Shown in pieces: positions 721 to 64,000 of a stretch of 64,000 nt of DNA. The translations under genes were made by a program, and so were the position numbers. The stretch covers positions 64,001 through 128,000 of the forward strand of contig JBMNIW010000006.1 in the NCBI GenBank assembly GCA_050951325.1, written 5' to 3'. Numbering within the stretch: position 1 is the first letter of the stretch; each line of letters begins with the position of its first letter. This DNA is from Clostridia bacterium. Lineage in GTDB: Bacteria; Bacillota; Clostridia; UBA1212; DUPL01. The notes below the pieces were generated by a model, which searched no databases, was not told the DNA's origin, and was given only the letters and a program-made list of their open reading frames with translations.

Positions 721-1480
721 CTATTCTTCCAACATTATTGTGCATAGCAGTCCTCTTACAGGTATCCTGTCTACCTCATACTTTCGCCGAAGTGTCGAGG
801 GGATGGATTCCACGCCGTTACGGATCTTTGCAAAATCCTTAAACTCCGATGTTTTCATGTAGCGGAGTTGTCTTGCTCTTAAAACGGTTTTATGTGATAT
901 TGTTTTGGACGATTTCTTTTTATGAAATTTCGGTCTGCACTGCTCACGGTAAGGACATTTGTTGCAAGTTTCTTTATTTAGTATGATGCGAACTGTATTT
1001 GTGGATAAATAATATTTGCAGGTTGTAGGGAATTGGCCTTCTAGGCATTTTAAAACTTTTTTGTCATATTTGCTGAATTCAAATTCCGTATAAAAGTAAT
1101 CAGGTATCTTGCCTACCAAGTTGGTGTTGATCAGATTTATATTATTTTCATCTGCAATTGCAACATTTTCCTCGCCTCTATATGATCCATCGGTTACAGG
1201 TGTTTCCTGAGCTTCAACGACACCCTTTAGAAATTGGCTTTCACTGTATGTGTTTGGTTGAAATCGTAATCAGTTATAACACTACCGTTTTCAGAGATAT
1301 TTTAAACTATGTTAGCTACATAACCACGGTGTTCTTTTCCCGCTTTCATGTAATAGGTCGCATCATGGTCAGAAGGATTTTGAAGTATTTCGGAGTGCTA
1401 GGATTTATCATCGTCTTCCTTAAGGTTCAACACTCCGTGTTCATCCATTACTCTTTGCTCAACTATTACTCGCTCAAGTA
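721..1480 (-). pseudogene. decayed DDE transposase (IS1182/IS5-like), central and C-terminal fragments
   Basis: Minus-strand pieces in shifting frames: LQNPSDHDATYYMKAGKEHRGYVANIV*, PVTDGSYRGEEN, then CNKCPYREQC and RNGVESIPSTLRRKY; internal stop and frameshift; no N-terminus. Confidence 0.7.
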
Positions 1481-1549
1481 ACAGATACTCACTTTTGCCT
1501 TTGTATTTTCGGAGTATCAATTTACTTTACACCCTAATTATTTATGGTT

Positions 1550-1623
1550 ATTACATTATTAAACAAACTGTAAAATTTGCCATTTATATAGAAAAAGTAT
1601 TCCATTAGTGCGGATAAGGTAAT
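1550..1623 (+). repeat. 74-bp direct repeat, left copy (target-site duplication of the IS1634-family element)
   Basis: attacattattaaac...gcggataaggtaat is identical to 3658..3731. Confidence 0.95.
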
Positions 1624-3657
1624 CTTGAGTTTAACAGTTAGAATTAAAAAAAACCTCCATAAACCCTTGTAATTAGTGGGTTTTTGAGGTTTTGTTTATT
1701 TCAGAAAAATGTTGTGTATTTATGGTCACTTTTTGGTATTTGCAATTAGTTGCCTGATGTCGCCTGCTTTTAGGAAGCGTCTATCCAGTCTCAAATTCAA
1801 ATCCTCACCCAAATCTTTTAGTATTTGGTCATAGTAGGTTGCCTTGTATACATTGTCCTTAATCCAACAAACCTGATAATTTCTCAAAGATTTGATTACC
1901 TGTTCAGGGGCATACTTTCCGTCCAGTCGTTTACACAAAAGTCTTAAGACTAGCAAGGCTATGAAACATGTAAGAAAGTGGGCATCAATCCTTTGCTCGA
2001 GTGTAACATTAACAGGTCTGGCTTCAATATCGCTTTTAGTAATCCTGAAACTATGTTCTATCTCCCAAAGACCGTGATATGCTTTGACGACATCATGGTC
2101 TGGCATATCCAGTTCGCTTGTAATGATTGCATAGTAGCCATCATACTTTTCGTCTTCCGCAATCCTGTCTTCATCCAGACTGGGTAAACGCCTGGTTTTA
2201 ATGTACTCACCAGTTTCCGGGTCATATTCAATGTTTTTTACATATCGTAATGCCCCACCTGCCTCACTCTTATCATAGCGTTTGGGATTTTCTATGATTC
2301 TTTTGGCCTTGGCAATAAGTTCAGCCCTCTTGTGCTTCTGGCGTCTTGCATAAAGCTCGTTGTAACATACAATCTGTTTTACATCCAACTGTATTTTGCG
2401 TTTGACATCATCTGCATGAGTTACCCAGAATTCCTGTGGATATAGTCGTGATTTCATGCGGAACAATCCGCTGTCTTGGTTGCCATTTCTTTCGTTCCAT
2501 GAATCAGCATGTTTTACTATCCCGTGCACATCTACATATCCTGACTGATCAAAAACATAGTCTTGCAGATCTTTGGAAGCTCCCCGTATTTTCTGAGAGA
2601 ATATGAATCCATCTCCTTTGGCCATGAGAAATGCGATGTTGTCTCCGCTATTCAATCCTTTGTCTGCTACGGTAATTATTCTACCCAGTCCATAACTGGC
2701 ACGTATTTTATGCAACAGCGGCATCATTGTCTGACTGTCATGGGTGTTCCCTTTAAATAACTGATACGCTATTGGAATAGCATCAGAATCAAGAAGCAGT
2801 CCCATTTGCACTAGCGGATTTCGTGTATTGTGCTTGCAATAACCCTTGCGACGAAATTCATCCTCTTTATCAATCTCAAAGTAAAAGTTTGTGACATCAT
2901 AAAAGACAACATCAGTTTTACGTTGATAGTTGATTCTGACCTGCTCGTGAAGATGGAGGAGAAGGTCATCTCGAAAAGATGCAAAATAGTCCAATGCACG
3001 ATAAACATCATACCAATCACATTTGAAATCTTTAGCCATACGTTCTTTTTGTCTGTAACTGTCTATCTTGGACCCTGGAGATAGAATCCTTGTATACACC
3101 AACAATTGCATAACATCGTTTAGCGAATAATCCATGGACAGGCTTCGTTGACGATTGATAATGAATTTGTCGATTTTTAACTGATGGTAAATTGAGCTTA
3201 GAGGAAGGAATCCCATGTGCTGCAAGGAATCTTCGTTCACTTCCATGGTCTCGTCTTCAGAAATAGTACCCAGAAATATTTCCTTTTTACTTTTTTCCTC
3301 GTTAAGTTTCTGGGTCCGAATACGTGCAATCTCTTTAAAATGTGCTATTGGATCCTCGTAACGATCAAGATATTCATCCAGATAGCCCAAATTCTCAACC
3401 AGCTTATGTTTGACTTTTTTGGTTGCAGGGTCACGATAACCTTCAACAAAACTTAAATTGATTTTGCCGTTTTTCAGTTTGGTAACTTTCAAAAACATCC
3501 AACAGCACCTCCTGATAGTAATCAGTTATATTATACCATGTTCTACTACATTATACAACAGAAAAATGAAAATTATTTGACATAAAAAAAGGCGCCAAGT
3601 TGGCGTTATTTAGGGCATTTTTGCAATTTAAATTGAAGATTAACTGTTAAACTAGGG
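1624..3657 (-). mobile_element. IS1634-family insertion sequence, complete, 2034 bp
   Basis: Imperfect 17-bp terminal inverted repeats (cttgagtttaacagtta at 1624; taactgttaaactaggg ending 3657), flanking 74-bp direct repeats, one long transposase ORF. Confidence 0.9.
1726..3498 (-). CDS. IS1634-family DDE transposase
   Basis: 590 aa; FYDVTNFYFE, VADKGLNS, YDGYYAIITS, YHGLWEIEHSFRITKS, RIDAHFLTCFIAL motifs. Confidence 0.92.
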   Translation of the reverse strand: MFLKVTKLKNGKINLSFVEGYRDPATKKVKHKLVENLGYLDEYLDRYEDPIAHFKEIARIRTQKLNEEKSKKEIFLGTISEDETMEVNEDSLQHMGFLPLSSIYHQLKIDKFIINRQRSLSMDYSLNDVMQLLVYTRILSPGSKIDSYRQKERMAKDFKCDWYDVYRALDYFASFRDDLLLHLHEQVRINYQRKTDVVFYDVTNFYFEIDKEDEFRRKGYCKHNTRNPLVQMGLLLDSDAIPIAYQLFKGNTHDSQTMMPLLHKIRASYGLGRIITVADKGLNSGDNIAFLMAKGDGFIFSQKIRGASKDLQDYVFDQSGYVDVHGIVKHADSWNERNGNQDSGLFRMKSRLYPQEFWVTHADDVKRKIQLDVKQIVCYNELYARRQKHKRAELIAKAKRIIENPKRYDKSEAGGALRYVKNIEYDPETGEYIKTRRLPSLDEDRIAEDEKYDGYYAIITSELDMPDHDVVKAYHGLWEIEHSFRITKSDIEARPVNVTLEQRIDAHFLTCFIALLVLRLLCKRLDGKYAPEQVIKSLRNYQVCWIKDNVYKATYYDQILKDLGEDLNLRLDRRFLKAGDIRQLIANTKK

Positions 3658-60265: not shown

Positions 60266-61762
60266 CTAATTCTTTTTTCTTAATACTAGAACAATTGTCA
60301 CTATTCCAGCTACAATCGCCACGGAAGAAATTATAATAATGATTGTATTTGAATCAATTCCCTTGTCGTGTTTTTCATCCTTGGTATTCCCTCCGTTATT
60401 CTCACCATTGTTCTCATCGCCGTTCTCATCATTGTCTCCAACCTCATCCGTTGGCTCAGGCTTCTGCTCAACATAGGACACTACAAGACAGTTCAGCACC
60501 TGCCTTTCAGCACCACCTTTGTCTGCAGGATTGTTTGCAACCTTGTACTCATTCTCATCCAGAACAACTGTCGTGGCAGATCCTCCACCATCAAATATGA
60601 AGGCATCAACAAGGTCCAGATCCTTGACAAGGTCCTTGTAAGAGGCAATTCCCACGCGGCCGCCATCATGCTTACTGGAACCGTATGTACCCATGATTAT
60701 TTTTCCTTCCGAAGTGATTCCAATAAAAGCTGTAGGATAGGAACCACCAGGGGAAACATTTTGAAATCTTCCATTTACAACAAAGGGGATATGTCCACCG
60801 GTCGCAACCTTTGCTCTTCTCCACTCTTCTGTAAATCTTCCGTTTTTGTCCCTTACATCAACCTTTATATTTATCTCATCCCCTATCTGGTAATCGGAGA
60901 TTTTGGATACTCTTGAACCTCTTGCGGTAAGTATGATCTTGTTTGAATTAGCTTCCATAACAGGATTGTCTTTATCTTCAGGTCCGTATATGGCAATAAC
61001 TTTTCCCGTTATATCCGTTCCATGCTTTATGACATAATCCGGCGTAGATGTAATGTCAATAACAACCTCAAAGGCATCATCCAGCGCATAATTGTTGGCA
61101 CACCCTTTGTCAGTATACATGACAAGAGCATTGTTTGCCGGAAGTCTGTTTATTCCATCAGCTTTCGCATTTGTGTTCTTTGTCAAGTTCGTAATATTCA
61201 CAGTTGCAGTAGGATTGGACAAGATAGGAATATTGTCCTCGGTAATTCCGAAACTCCAAAAATCACCTTCAAAAGGAGTTTCCTGCCGCATATGGGATGT
61301 GGATACTATTTCTCCGTCAATAACATTATATCCTCTAGGTAATGCCAAACCCTTCTTCACCACAGGATCGTTGTATCCACCATAGGAGGTTTCGCTGCCC
61401 AATACTCTGGAATGAGCATATGTAACCGTCCAAAGTTCTGCATTTATTGCAGCCAAAGCCTTCTTTCCATCCGTCCCGTTAAACTCCTTTATCATATCAG
61501 AAGTTCTCTTCCATGCATGGGTTATAAAAGGGCTGCCGTAAACATTATCAAAAACTATTCCTTCTTTTGAAAGGTCCACTTCTATCAGGTCAAACTGTAC
61601 GTTGTTGTAATTCTTACCCGCCTTGATTTGAGTATACTTGACTCCGTCAGCAAGCTCCCTTTCAGCTGTGACCCTGTTATTCTCGCCGGTCAACGTATAA
61701 GCAAAAACACTCGAACATCCAACAATAGCGACAATTAATAAAACAACTAGAATTTTTTTCAT
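60266..61762 (-). CDS. phosphodiester glycosidase (NAGPA-like) family surface protein
   Basis: LAAINA, FIFDGGGSAT, NNPAD..ERQVLNCL; signal peptide; D/E/N linker; C-terminal TM plus RKKN. Confidence 0.8.
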   Translation of the reverse strand: MKKILVVLLIVAIVGCSSVFAYTLTGENNRVTAERELADGVKYTQIKAGKNYNNVQFDLIEVDLSKEGIVFDNVYGSPFITHAWKRTSDMIKEFNGTDGKKALAAINAELWTVTYAHSRVLGSETSYGGYNDPVVKKGLALPRGYNVIDGEIVSTSHMRQETPFEGDFWSFGITEDNIPILSNPTATVNITNLTKNTNAKADGINRLPANNALVMYTDKGCANNYALDDAFEVVIDITSTPDYVIKHGTDITGKVIAIYGPEDKDNPVMEANSNKIILTARGSRVSKISDYQIGDEINIKVDVRDKNGRFTEEWRRAKVATGGHIPFVVNGRFQNVSPGGSYPTAFIGITSEGKIIMGTYGSSKHDGGRVGIASYKDLVKDLDLVDAFIFDGGGSATTVVLDENEYKVANNPADKGGAERQVLNCLVVSYVEQKPEPTDEVGDNDENGDENNGENNGGNTKDEKHDKGIDSNTIIIIISSVAIVAGIVTIVLVLRKKN

Positions 61763-61998
61763 GTTTCACCCTCACACATTATATTTTTTTAATTATCTCA
61801 CAAAAATCCTTTCATTACAAGAAATCAAATCTTAATATAAATTCTCCGTCCTCAACATCCCCATCTCATAAAAGCCTTCCACAGACAGAACACAAACAAC
61901 ATTCTACTACTTTTTAGAAAAAATGTTATGATAATTGAAAGATTTGCAGTACTTTTTTTGAAGTATATTAATGGGGGAAGAAAAAAGGAGGATATGGC

Positions 61999-62598
61999 TT
62001 GGATGAACTAATAGTTGACATACTAAAGAAAAACCCACAGAAGGGGTTAAAACTCATTATTGACCAATATACCGGATTAATTTACACAATATGCCATAAC
62101 AAGCTTAAAGGAGTCATGTCTCACGAAGACATAGAGGAATGTGTTAGCGATGTTTTTGTTGATATTTACAAGCAGCGAGATATCATTGATCTTGCCGAAG
62201 GCTCGCTAAGAAGCTATTTGTGTGTCATTGCAAAGCGTAAAGCAATTAATTTATACAACTCGATGTCTTTAAAAAAGAATATTGCTGCAAAAAATGCAAT
62301 ACCTCTGGAGGACGACTTGCTGAACAAAGTGCAAGATGAAAACCTCACCCCCGAAGAGATATACATAGAGTATGAAAACAGAATTGAAGTTGCCAAGGCC
62401 ATAAGAGACTTGGGGGAACCAGACTGCGAGATACTTGTCAGAAAGTATTTCCTAATGGAAAGCTCAAAAAAAATAGCAGAGTGTTTTGGCATGAGTGCCA
62501 ACGCAGTAGATATAAGGGTACATAGAGCTCTTAAGAAACTAAAAACAATGCTTGGAGGAAACGAAAGTGAAAAAAGAGAAACTGTCAAATCTATTTGA
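61999..62598 (+). CDS. ECF-type sigma-70 factor
   Basis: AGGAGG RBS; region 2 EDIEECVSDVF...SLRSYLCVIAKRKAIN; region 4 KKIAECFGMSANAVDIRVHRALKKLK. Confidence 0.92.
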   Translation: MDELIVDILKKNPQKGLKLIIDQYTGLIYTICHNKLKGVMSHEDIEECVSDVFVDIYKQRDIIDLAEGSLRSYLCVIAKRKAINLYNSMSLKKNIAAKNAIPLEDDLLNKVQDENLTPEEIYIEYENRIEVAKAIRDLGEPDCEILVRKYFLMESSKKIAECFGMSANAVDIRVHRALKKLKTMLGGNESEKRETVKSI

Positions 62599-64000
62599 CG
62601 ATCCTACTGTCGAAGAAACTGAAATTCTAGTTACTGATAATATTAAGACTGAGGAATTTGAATCCAGGAAAGGAATCATAACCAAAAAAGTATTGAAACA
62701 GATTCCGTCAGTTAAGAGAGTTTTTGTCGTGAGTAAAAAAGGTGTTTTTGCGGCAGCCGCTACAATAATTGCTCTATTTGTTATCTCACTTACAATAATT
62801 TTAGTCATGGATCGAGATCCAAGTAATGGTACAATAATAAACAACCCAACTCCAACACCATCTATAACAAACCATATTACAACAACACCAAGTGTGATTC
62901 CGACAGCCACAGCGCCATCAACCACAAAGACGCCAGCACCTACAAAAACATCCACTCCAGCACCAGGAACTCCAACTGCAACAGCCGAGCCTACATCAGA
63001 ACCCACTTCCACTCCTAAACCAACACCTTCTCCCACCCCCATACAACCAAGAGAAGGTATTGAAAAAGACTGGCCGGATGATAATTGGGCACCCGCGAGC
63101 GCAACAGTATTTCTGGCAGATTATCCACCAGAATACAGTTATTTTGATAACCGGTTTATGTTTGAGCTTCAAAATATTGTGAGTCAAAAAACAGTATTGG
63201 CTCTGGAGAAATTTTCGTATGGCACTGCATACGAGTTGTTAAAACAAGGAGGGAATGTAAACTACAGTCCATTAAGTCTGTACTTTGCACTGAGCCTGTG
63301 CGCTCAAGGTGCGGAAGGGGAAACTTTTGAGGAACTCATGAATGTGTTGGGCCTGAACAATATGTCAAAAGAGTTCCTGATGGATGAGACAAGGAAATTG
63401 TACAACAGACTTTACATTGATCATGAGTTTGGAAAGTTAAAGATAGCAAACTCGGTCTGGCTGTCCAATCTTAATGGCGTTACCTATAAACAAACCTTTA
63501 TTGACAACGCAAGACAGCATTTCTATGCAACCTTGTTCAGTGTGGATTTTACAGATGAAGATACAAGCAAACTAATGAAAAAATGGATATTTGACAACAC
63601 CGAGGGAACACTTGCACCAGATTTTCCGCATGACCCTACAACCATATTTAAAATAATCAACACAATATATTATAGAAATCAATGGAACGAAGAGTTTGAA
63701 GAAGAAAACAACTATCTCGACAAGTTTTATGGATGCACTGAAACAACAGATATGGAGTTCATGAAAAGAACGGATGTGCAAGCAGAATACTATAAAGGCG
63801 AGGACTATACATGTACAACCCTGAGGGTTAAAGGCGGAAAGATGGTGTTCTTGCTGCCTGATGAAGGAGTCAGTATAGAAGACTTCCTGACCAGTCCGGG
63901 AAAACTGGAAGCAGCAATCAAATCCCCCACTATTTATGCACCACTATTTGATGGGTATATGGTTACTTTGCATTTACCCAAGTTTGGATTTGAAAGCAAA
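62567..64000 (+). CDS. membrane-anchored serpin with anti-sigma-like topology (3' end beyond window)
   Basis: Not in ORF track. GTG at 62567 after GGAGG, open for 478 codons: ~58-aa N-terminal segment, TM (VFAAAATIIALFVISLTIILV), P/T linker, then serpin motifs NVNYSPLSLYFALSLCAQGAEGET, LKIANSVW, WIFDNTEG, IINTIYYRNQWNEEF, MVFLLPD, LHLPKF. Confidence 0.9.
   Translation, partial: MKKEKLSNLFDDPTVEETEILVTDNIKTEEFESRKGIITKKVLKQIPSVKRVFVVSKKGVFAAAATIIALFVISLTIILVMDRDPSNGTIINNPTPTPSITNHITTTPSVIPTATAPSTTKTPAPTKTSTPAPGTPTATAEPTSEPTSTPKPTPSPTPIQPREGIEKDWPDDNWAPASATVFLADYPPEYSYFDNRFMFELQNIVSQKTVLALEKFSYGTAYELLKQGGNVNYSPLSLYFALSLCAQGAEGETFEELMNVLGLNNMSKEFLMDETRKLYNRLYIDHEFGKLKIANSVWLSNLNGVTYKQTFIDNARQHFYATLFSVDFTDEDTSKLMKKWIFDNTEGTLAPDFPHDPTTIFKIINTIYYRNQWNEEFEEENNYLDKFYGCTETTDMEFMKRTDVQAEYYKGEDYTCTTLRVKGGKMVFLLPDEGVSIEDFLTSPGKLEAAIKSPTIYAPLFDGYMVTLHLPKFGFESK

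What the first reader, a model, noticed from the sequence alone, without database searches (positions are those of the whole stretch)
61999..64000. ECF sigma factor coupled to a serpin-bearing anti-sigma-like protein: candidate protease-sensing system
Seen: an ORF absent from the supplied track starts at GTG 62567, overlapping the sigma gene by 32 bp. It encodes a ~58-aa N-terminal segment, one TM (~62744-62806), a ~65-aa Pro/Thr stalk and a clear serpin fold from ~63200 to the window edge. Knowledge: the gene downstream of an ECF sigma is typically its single-pass anti-sigma; in Clostridium thermocellum RsgI anti-sigmas display CBMs on linkers as sensors; serpins undergo a large irreversible conformational change when their reactive loop is cleaved. 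Inference: the serpin is both bait and sensor, so attack by a foreign protease would trap the enzyme and trigger sigma release. I know of no characterised example, but could not search. The reactive loop lies beyond the window, and the IYYRNQW variant of the usual IYFKG.W motif leaves inhibitory activity open.
Basis: partly seen in the sequence, partly recalled or inferred. Interest (0 to 1): 0.85.

Follow-up and report, generated by a model that had tools for sequence, protein, structure and literature searches.

The report
Sigma factor held by membrane serpin
A stress-type sigma factor gene is fused in one operon to a membrane protein whose inner tail looks like a sigma-factor inhibitor and whose outer part is a protease-trapping serpin, a pairing that recurs in many Clostridia and may be a way for bacteria to sense attacking proteases.

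Summary
An ECF sigma gene (61999-62598) overlaps by 32 bp a 573-aa gene (GTG 62567, ending 288 nt past the window). That gene encodes a 58-aa cytoplasmic tail, one TM helix, a Pro/Thr linker of about 95 aa and a complete serpin with an inhibitory-type hinge.

The tail is homologous to the tails of the single-pass partners of this sigma's closest relatives. Those partners are of the DUF4179/RsiV or RsgI_M type, and none of 28 carries a serpin. The tail is predicted to sit between sigma domains 2 and 4: score 0.87, best control 0.00.

A sister sigma clade is paired with TM-serpins bearing a "KIFDAIT..EEA" tail. A sigma is adjacent in 33 of 35 motif-bearing serpin genes and in 0 of 49 others. That clade has its own conserved promoter.

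Metatranscriptome contigs bridge the two window genes. My four literature searches found no description.

Anti-sigma identity is well supported. Protease sensing remains an inference, and the long linker argues against signalling by conformation alone.

The parts
61936..61971 (+). Promoter-like element TGAAAG-21 nt-GTATATTAA, 28 nt before the sigma start (candidate autoregulated ECF promoter)
   Evidence: Relatives of this sigma share TGAAAC, a T-rich spacer of 17-18 nt and GTATATAAT(A)G upstream. The window's copy has a spacer 3 nt longer. Of 5 strict matches in the 3.08-Mb genome, only this one lies before a gene. Suggestive only.
61999..62598 (+). ECF-type sigma factor gene (199 aa, TTG start, RBS GGAGG 61987-61991)
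   Evidence: Pfam Sigma70_r2 (30.8 bits) and r4_2 (29.1 bits). TIGR02937 at 66.8 bits. Closest relatives are 37-45% identical. It is sister, on a long branch, to the serpin-linked sigma clade with support 96/88.
62567..62740 (+). Cytoplasmic tail of the serpin protein (residues 1-58): putative sigma-binding anti-sigma segment
   Evidence: An HMM of the tails of 7 partners of related sigmas, built without the window's protein, ranks this protein first of 10,094 own-genome ORFs (E = 0.0014, residues 8-52). Predicted complex with the sigma scores 0.87 against a best control of 0.00; residues 1-49 touch sigma residues 12-83 and 120-162. No Pfam or NCBIfam family matches and there is no Cys or His, so it is not a zinc anti-sigma.
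62744..62809 (+). Single transmembrane helix (residues 59-81), N-in and C-out
   Evidence: Hydrophobicity maximum found. Helix 57-81 in the AF2 model. Basic residues precede it and acidic residues follow it.
62819..63106 (+). Pro/Thr-rich extracellular linker (residues 85-180)
   Evidence: 57% P/T/S over 96 residues. pLDDT is below 50 and no secondary structure is predicted.
63182..64000 (+). Serpin domain (residues 206-573); the last 95 residues, with the hinge and reactive loop, lie 288 nt beyond the window (L004 up to 3289)
   Evidence: PF00079 at E = 6e-38. Conserpin 6e-36, tengpin 2e-29, miropin 8e-27, alpha-1-antitrypsin about 1e-26. Hinge E523/G525/A528/A530/T532.

Best explanation
The two genes form a self-contained ECF sigma / anti-sigma operon that is probably autoregulated. 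The anti-sigma is a single-pass membrane protein. Its 58-residue cytoplasmic tail clamps the sigma between domains 2 and 4. Its extracellular part, held on a Pro/Thr linker of about 95 residues, is an inhibitory-type serpin.

Most likely mode of action (inferred). Extracellular serine proteases attack the exposed ectodomain, at the reactive-loop bait and, once the serpin is spent, at the linker. The trimmed stub is then cut within the membrane by a site-2 protease. The sigma is released and drives its own promoter, so fresh sigma and fresh surface serpin are made. This would be a consumption-triggered supply of a suicide inhibitor.

My odds for the separate steps:
- The protein is this sigma's anti-sigma: about 0.85.
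- A protease is the cue: about 0.5.
- Release runs through ectodomain loss plus site-2 cleavage: about 0.45.
For: Shown by computation:
- Gene overlap with a ribosome-binding site for each gene.
- An ECF-type sigma.
- Topology and a complete serpin with a conserved hinge.
- Tail homology. The tail matches the tails of the partners of the sigma's closest relatives. It is the top hit of 10,094 ORFs at E = 0.0014, and the next hit is at 0.069. Those partners carry DUF4179, the domain of the lysozyme receptor RsiV (passages of PMC6066255), or RsgI_M.
- Predicted complex. The score is 0.87 (runs 0.86, 0.87, 0.87) and the best of 3 controls is 0.00. That mark was reached by 58 of 80 solved complexes and 2 of 110 mismatched pairs. 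The runs agree in at least 86% of contacts and the partner's pLDDT is at least 77. My own alignments were used, so these counts hold only roughly.
- No other anti-sigma candidate lies before a terminator-like hairpin 375 nt downstream.
- Contigs of three metatranscriptome runs from three studies bridge the gene junction (X15 1084-3419, X16 1505-3647, X18 1447-1860 in L004).
- The genome has M50 site-2 proteases (2 matches).

Second scaffold with the same pairing:
- In 80 loci holding 84 serpin ORFs, a sigma gene lies directly upstream of 33 of 35 ORFs with the KIFDAIT..EEA tail. It lies upstream of 0 of the 49 others, 6 of which sit at contig ends.
- 32 of these sigmas (one partial copy was left out) form one clade with support 100/100.
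- A conserved promoter precedes them, GAATAT-N12-CCTGTCTAT. A regex finds it in 23 of 32 loci, and in 2 more it lies inside over-extended ORF calls.
- Only the sigma and the serpin are conserved in the neighbourhoods of the 32 loci examined.
- In 4 of 5 whole genomes the exact motif marks this operon. The 3 extra matches have no ORF behind them.
Against: - No experiment exists. Binding is a model's confidence, and because sigma/anti-sigma complexes have been solved the pass may reflect likeness to them.
- The tail homology is weak (18.4 bits).
- A phmmer search of 1.84 billion representatives with the tail found only one near-identical fragment.
- The window's promoter-like site has a spacer 3 nt longer than in relatives.
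- The reactive loop is 3 residues longer than that of alpha-1-antitrypsin, so P1 is uncertain. It is G539 by hinge count and E542 by C-terminal anchoring.
- The DUF4179 juxtamembrane switch of RsiV is absent, so the site-1 step has no identified site or enzyme.
- Nothing in the data identifies a protease as the ligand.
- RNA-library contigs can contain DNA and do not prove a single transcript.
Confidence: 0.55

Rival explanations
1. Cargo model. The tail is a true anti-sigma, but the serpin is only a tethered effector. Sigma release would be governed by some other envelope signal or by constitutive turnover, and the serpin would play no part in sensing.
For: The linker of about 95 residues decouples the serpin from the membrane. 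The sigma's relatives use quite different ectodomains on the same tail. The regulon appears to be the operon itself, so a tethered inhibitor under any envelope-stress control would fit.
Against: Serpins were recruited onto two different anti-sigma scaffolds. The serpin-linked sigmas form one clade that keeps the pairing across several families. A mere effector is more simply made as a lipoprotein, as in the 27-29 lipobox serpins found without a sigma.
Confidence: 0.25
2. The serpin ectodomain binds or controls one of the cell's own secreted or surface proteases, or a non-protease ligand, rather than foreign proteases. The system would then report on the state of that partner.
For: The reactive loop is strongly conserved within the sigma-linked clade (Q-I-D-Y-x-G-[AS]-A-x-P), as expected for one conserved target. 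Cellulosomal serpins are thought to guard the cell's own machinery (passages of the review PMC8201313).
Against: No protease gene is conserved beside the module in the 32 loci examined. The hinge is as conserved as in free lipoprotein serpins.
Confidence: 0.12
3. It is not an anti-sigma at all. The gene would be a membrane-anchored serpin that merely shares a transcript with an ECF sigma, whose real regulator lies elsewhere.
For: No Pfam or NCBIfam anti-sigma domain is found in the tail. The AF2 monomer model of the tail has low confidence.
Against: Tail homology to the partners of related sigmas. Predicted complex at 0.87 against 0.00. Translational overlap. No other candidate gene in the operon. 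In the sister clade the tail motif is seen decayed in several serpin genes that lack a sigma (L019, L036, L070, L073).
Confidence: 0.08

Closest known systems
SigV / RsiV of Bacillus subtilis (ECF30; anti-sigma that is a receptor for lysozyme)
   Same: It is a single-pass anti-sigma whose ectodomain binds a hostile enzyme. Sigma release runs by site-1 then site-2 proteolysis, and the operon is autoregulated. The partners of the window sigma's closest relatives carry DUF4179, the RsiV domain (passages of PMC6066255).
   Different: The window's protein has no DUF4179 and no lysozyme-binding domain. A Pro/Thr linker and a serpin take their place. The ligand would be a protease that is covalently trapped rather than reversibly bound. 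That RsiV binds lysozyme directly is partly my recall; one search showed only the passages on signal peptidase cleavage in the presence of lysozyme.
SigI / RsgI of Clostridium thermocellum (anti-sigmas displaying carbohydrate-binding modules)
   Same: The logic is modular: one cytoplasmic tail and TM segment with interchangeable extracellular sensor domains on linkers. One partner of a related sigma (L099) carries the RsgI_M domain.
   Different: The sigma here is ECF-type, not SigI-type. No RsgI_N domain is found. The sensor is a protease inhibitor rather than a sugar-binding module. The description of RsgI itself is recalled, not read here.
Serpin operon of Bifidobacterium breve controlled by a two-component system
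   Same: Serpin production is placed under an autoregulated signalling system.
   Different: There the sensor is a separate histidine kinase and the serpin is a free product. Here the serpin is part of the regulator itself. I saw only the title in a reference list (Alvarez-Martin 2012, in PMC8201313); that proteases induce it is recalled.
Free bacterial serpins (tengpin, miropin, siropins, C. thermocellum PinA)
   Same: Same fold and hinge. Tengpin and miropin are among the best solved matches.
   Different: Those are secreted, lipoprotein or dockerin-borne inhibitors with no link to a sigma factor. The review PMC8201313 contains no occurrence of the word 'sigma'.

Membership tests
ECF (group 4) sigma-70 factor | Only domains sigma-2 and sigma-4, about 200 aa | tested here: met
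   199 aa. Pfam r2 at residues 21-86 and r4_2 at 130-181. TIGR02937 at 66.8 bits against a cut-off of 42.9.
ECF (group 4) sigma-70 factor | Co-transcribed cognate anti-sigma directly downstream | tested here: met
   32-bp overlap. RNA-library contigs bridge the junction. Predicted binding at 0.87 against 0.00.
ECF (group 4) sigma-70 factor | Autoregulated group-specific promoter | tested here: inconclusive
   A motif like that of relatives, but with a spacer 3 nt longer.
Inhibitory serpin | Serpin fold | tested here: met
   PF00079 at E = 6e-38 on the window part. Residues 206-569 align to conserpin residues 18-373. The AF2 core has pLDDT 70-90, although the whole model is poor at a mean of 58.
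Inhibitory serpin | Hinge P17 Glu, P15 Gly, small residues at P12-P10, P8 Thr | tested here: met
   E523, G525, A528, S529, A530 and T532. P14 is Ile; the clade has Val in 34 of 35.
Inhibitory serpin | Reactive loop of canonical length with a defined P1 | tested here: inconclusive
   The loop is 3 residues longer than the alpha-1-antitrypsin loop in conserpin-AATRCL. P1 is G539 or E542 depending on the anchor used.
Inhibitory serpin | Forms a covalent complex with a target protease | not testable with these tools
   Needs biochemistry.
RsiV/DUF4179-type anti-sigma (ECF30) | N-terminal sigma-binding tail homologous to the family's | tested here: met
   Leave-out HMM of 7 partner tails gives E = 0.0014, rank 1 of 10,094. 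The match is weak.
RsiV/DUF4179-type anti-sigma (ECF30) | DUF4179 juxtamembrane segment with the signal-peptidase site | tested here: not met
   No PF13786 match at E <= 0.01 or at E <= 1 on residues 1-85. A Pro/Thr linker is there instead.
Zinc-binding (ZAS) class I anti-sigma | H-x3-C-x2-C motif in the N-terminal domain | tested here: not met
   Residues 1-58 contain no His or Cys. No zf-HC2 match.
RsgI anti-sigma-I | RsgI_N domain and a SigI-type partner | tested here: not met
   No RsgI_N match. The sigma's best families are ECF models.

The most novel reading that the evidence does not exclude
A serpin works as a signalling receptor. Covalent capture or cleavage by an attacking serine protease would be the event that licenses intramembrane proteolysis of the anti-sigma and frees the sigma. 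The bacterium would then measure extracellular protease load with a suicide bait and answer by making more of it. Serpin-bearing anti-sigmas occur on two different anti-sigma scaffolds: the window's DUF4179-related tail and the KIFDAIT..EEA tail of many Clostridia. This suggests the design was selected repeatedly, or was moved between scaffolds, because the serpin itself is the sensor.
Probability: 0.35. Interest if true: 0.9.

Novelty: new variant of a known kind. Interest (0 to 1): 0.78.

Why it matters
How bacteria perceive extracellular proteases is poorly understood. The known ECF pathways sense misfolded porins, lysozyme, beta-lactams or sugars.

A two-gene module in which the inhibitor is the sensor domain would give a directly testable protease-sensing pathway. 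It would also be the first signalling role for a bacterial serpin and a compact protease-responsive switch for synthetic biology.

The module is not a curiosity of one genome. 33 examples were seen among the best 80 of 556 related loci, in Oscillospiraceae, Lachnospiraceae, Tissierellaceae, Acutalibacteraceae, Paenibacillaceae and others. That list includes gut and digester organisms, where protease load is high.

The work also exposes a very large and apparently uncharacterised family of modular anti-sigmas with the KIFDAIT..EEA tail.

Tried and rejected
- AF2 monomer model. Mean pLDDT was 58 and the tail was below 50. I used it only for the TM helix and the disorder of the linker, and ran no fold search on it.
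- phmmer of tail plus TM (85 aa) against 1.84 billion representatives. It found one near-identical 83-aa fragment, so it gave no family.
- Pfam, NCBIfam and Pfam at E <= 1 on the tails of the window protein, of L007 and of L099. Nothing meaningful came back.
- The search for homologous proteins with the whole protein. Only one 99% cluster shares the architecture. Only the 8000 candidates sharing most words were scored, so this is not proof that the protein is unique.
- Same-order relatives. Their serpins are at most 35% identical. Many of the listed 'matches' are hits to the Pro/Thr linker and were ignored.
- The first two regexes for the tail motif misclassified rows and were replaced. L015 and L052 were then reclassified by eye after translation.
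- The first genome pattern had the wrong spacer range and returned only background. It was corrected.
- Regulon scans used exact patterns only, so weaker sites would be missed.
- Gaps in RNA-contig cover, for example L004 770-898, were not used as evidence for a transcript start.
- The serpin tree (FastTree) places the window's serpin with L005 on a long branch. I draw no conclusion on the direction of any domain swap.
- Supplements of the ECF reclassification paper, which could list serpin as a neighbour domain, could not be read.
Full report
**1. What is in the sequence**

The window is G000:C6:64001-128000. An ORF at 61999-62598 (+) starts at TTG, seven nt after GGAGG, and encodes 199 aa. 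It carries Sigma70_r2 and Sigma70_r4_2 and matches the ECF superfamily model TIGR02937 at 66.8 bits.

A second ORF starts at GTG 62567, eight nt after GGAGG. It overlaps the sigma gene by 32 bp and runs off the window. I fetched the continuation from the same contig (L004). The gene ends 288 nt beyond the window and encodes 573 aa (P0001). An independent database cluster at 99% identity starts at the same residue.

The layout of the protein is:
- Residues 1-58 are hydrophilic and contain no Cys or His.
- Residues 59-81 form one TM helix, with K/R before it and D-R-D after it.
- Residues 85-180 are 57% Pro/Thr/Ser.
- Residues 206-569 align with solved serpins: conserpin 6e-36, tengpin 2e-29, miropin 8e-27, alpha-1-antitrypsin about 1e-26.

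The hinge reads E523-K-G-I-T-A-S-A-V-T532, and the loop continues N-I-S-G-G-M-G-S-P-E-W-M. The loop is 3 residues longer than the alpha-1-antitrypsin loop, so P1 is G539 by hinge count or E542 by C-terminal anchoring.

A terminator-like hairpin (11-bp stem) lies 375 nt after the stop codon. No credible ORF lies between them. The only corrections are that the stalk is longer than stated and the hinge is a variant of the expected motif.

**2. Is the tail an anti-sigma domain?**

Profile libraries give nothing for the tail. An exhaustive phmmer search found only one near-identical fragment. Context was informative.

I searched 398 scored genomes of the same class with the sigma. 56 had a match at E <= 1e-15, and the best were 37-45% identical. 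In 28 of the 29 fetched loci, a single-pass protein follows the sigma, usually with a small overlap. Each has a tail of 40-70 aa and a variable ectodomain. None of the 28 is a serpin.

Of the ten I scanned, six match DUF4179 (three above Pfam's cut-off, three below it), three of those also match DUF5643, one matches RsgI_M, and three match nothing. DUF4179 is the juxtamembrane domain of the lysozyme-responsive anti-sigma RsiV and of BAS1627, both ECF30 (passages of PMC6066255; passages of PMC7826278).

An HMM of the tails of the seven closest partners, built without the window's protein, was searched against all 10,094 ORFs of at least 60 aa in the window's genome. The serpin protein ranked first (E = 0.0014, 18.4 bits, residues 8-52). 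The next hit was at E = 0.069.

I then sent the sigma (alignment A2, 29 rows) and tail residues 1-60 (alignment A3, 29 rows) to complex prediction. The result:
- The score was 0.87 (runs 0.86, 0.87, 0.87), and the best of three controls was 0.00.
- That mark was reached by 58 of 80 solved complexes and 2 of 110 mismatched pairs.
- The runs agree in at least 86% of contacts, and the partner's pLDDT is at least 77.
- Because I used my own alignments, those counts hold only roughly.

Tail residues 1-49 touch sigma residues 12-83 (domain 2) and 120-162 (domain 4), which is the classical clamp. Sigma/anti-sigma complexes have been solved, so the pass shows likeness to them and does not show that this copy binds.

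**3. A second, widespread serpin-anti-sigma family**

The nearest serpin relatives are 37-43% identical over the serpin part only. Many of them begin with 'MKEKKIFDAITNVxDELIEEA' followed by a TM helix.

A scan of one genome per species found 556 related loci, of which the best 80 were kept. They hold 84 serpin ORFs. 33 carry the motif by regex. Two more (L015, frameshifted; L052, an over-extended ORF call) carry it on inspection.
- A sigma gene lies directly upstream in 33 of these 35, typically with a 4-bp overlap.
- L067 and L078 have none within 4 kb.
- Of the 49 serpin ORFs without the motif, 0 have an adjacent sigma. These are mostly lipoproteins, and 6 sit at contig ends.
- Several sigma-less genes (L019, L036, L070, L073) show a decayed motif.

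The 32 full-length adjacent sigmas form one clade with support 100/100. One partial copy, in L013, was left out. The window's sigma, together with a non-adjacent sigma of L033, is their sister with support 96/88, on a long branch.

Upstream of the clade's sigma genes lies a conserved ECF-like promoter, (C)GAATAT-N12-CCTGTCTAT. It is visible. A regex finds it in 23 of 32 loci, and in two more it lies inside over-extended ORF calls.

Only the sigma and the serpin are conserved in the 32 neighbourhoods. The next most frequent family occurs in 7 loci. In 4 of 5 whole genomes the exact motif marks the operon. The three additional matches have no ORF of 80 aa or more within 220 nt.

Four loci carry a second serpin gene after the first: a signal-peptide one in L026, L062 and L059, and a tandem pair without an adjacent sigma in L014.

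This sigma family is much larger than its serpin branch. 67 of 398 class genomes match at E <= 1e-30. In 29 of the 30 fetched loci the partner again has the K.F.AI..V.DE.IEEA-type tail and a TM helix, but only 2 of the 30 carry a serpin. Serpin is therefore one of many exchangeable ectodomains on this scaffold as well.

**4. Relation between the two**

The window's serpin groups with that of L005, a motif-type sigma-linked serpin, on a long branch. It shares a G-M-G-[GS]-P-E loop with it. The window's sigma and tail, however, belong to the DUF4179-related group.

So serpin-bearing anti-sigmas exist on two scaffolds, either by independent recruitment or by exchange of modules. I cannot tell which.

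The hinge is invariant in both groups: E P17, G P15, A P12 and T P8 in 35 of 35 sigma-linked and 48 of 48 other serpins (one short ORF was dropped). The capacity for loop insertion is therefore retained throughout.

**5. Expression and habitat**

Near-identical DNA occurs in runs labelled anaerobic digester, bioreactor, sludge, biogas fermenter and compost metagenomes. 20 rows from 18 studies hold it, and 6 of those rows may be the source of this DNA.

In four metatranscriptome runs, contigs with at least 99% identity cover the operon. Contigs of three runs from three studies bridge the sigma/serpin junction. Such contigs can include DNA and do not prove a single transcript.

**6. Promoter of the window's operon**

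Relatives of the window's sigma share the motif TGAAAC, a T-rich spacer, then GTATATAAT(A)G. The window has TGAAAG-21 nt-GTATATTAATG ending 28 nt before the sigma start. The -10 part and the T-run match well, but the spacer is 3 nt longer.

Of five strict matches in the genome, only this one precedes a gene. Autoregulation of the window's operon is thus likely but not established.

**7. Mechanism**

Shown by computation:
- The architecture and topology of the protein.
- Homology of the tail to partner tails.
- The predicted clamp on sigma domains 2 and 4.
- Conservation of the pairing in a sister clade.
- The clade's own promoter.
- The presence of M50 site-2 proteases in the genome.

Inferred:
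- The tail inhibits the sigma.
- Extracellular serine proteases are the cue.
- Removal or destruction of the ectodomain licenses site-2 cleavage, as in other single-pass anti-sigmas.
- The output is mainly the operon itself, so surface serpin is replenished as it is consumed.

It is less implausible in the KIFDAIT clade, where the linkers are short.

**8. Literature**

Four full-text checks found no description of a serpin joined to an anti-sigma or ECF system:
- 'serpin' with 'anti-sigma': 18 papers, none relevant by title and abstract.
- 'serpin' with 'extracytoplasmic function': 5 papers, none relevant.
- 'bacterial serpin' with 'sigma factor': 2 papers, none relevant.
- The ECF reclassification paper has no occurrence of 'serpin' in its main text. 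Its supplements could not be read.

The review 'Gut Serpinome' has no occurrence of 'sigma'. Database names for these proteins are only 'serpin family protein', 'serpin B' and 'serine protease inhibitor'.

**9. Verdict**

This is a real sigma/anti-sigma pair with a serpin ectodomain. It is a divergent representative of a pairing that is widespread in Clostridia and, as far as my four searches show, undescribed. It is a new variant of a known kind, the ECF sigma with a single-pass anti-sigma bearing a sensor domain. Protease sensing is the most attractive reading and remains to be tested.

Noticed in passing
L127-L156; L005-L084: A very large Clostridial family of ECF sigma plus single-pass partner pairs. 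The partners have a 'K.F.AI..V.DE.IEEA' tail, there is almost always a 4-bp gene overlap, and the ectodomains are highly diverse. 67 of 398 class genomes match the sigma at E <= 1e-30. The tail has no Pfam family.
   Followed up: partly
L033 3808-3834 and 3893-5179: A serpin gene without the anti-sigma tail and without an adjacent sigma still has the clade's promoter motif directly upstream. It looks like a remnant left after loss of the sigma and the tail.
   Followed up: no
G000:C1:222156-224269 (outside the window): The same genome has two further serpin reading frames in tandem. One is a 413-aa lipoprotein-type serpin only 26-27% identical to the window's.
   Followed up: no
G000, several contigs: The genome holds about 12 ECF sigma genes. 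Some partners are zinc-finger anti-sigmas. Several others (C8:207320, C7:57258, C12:468894) are single-pass proteins with Pro/Thr linkers like the one here.
   Followed up: no
L004 898 (window 61897): Metatranscriptome contigs of two runs (X15, X16) diverge from the window's sequence upstream of this point, with the same loose end in both. This suggests a strain variant in the intergenic region before the sigma promoter.
   Followed up: no
window 60266-61762 (-): The divergently oriented neighbour is a 498-aa protein with a lipoprotein-like N-terminus and a C-terminal hydrophobic segment. Its N-terminal half gave no Pfam family. No link to the operon was seen.
   Followed up: partly
L026 5268-6689, L062 5498-7213, L059 1764-3170: In some KIFDAIT-type operons a second serpin gene, with a signal peptide, follows the anti-sigma serpin. 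It may be a secreted effector of the same system.
   Followed up: no
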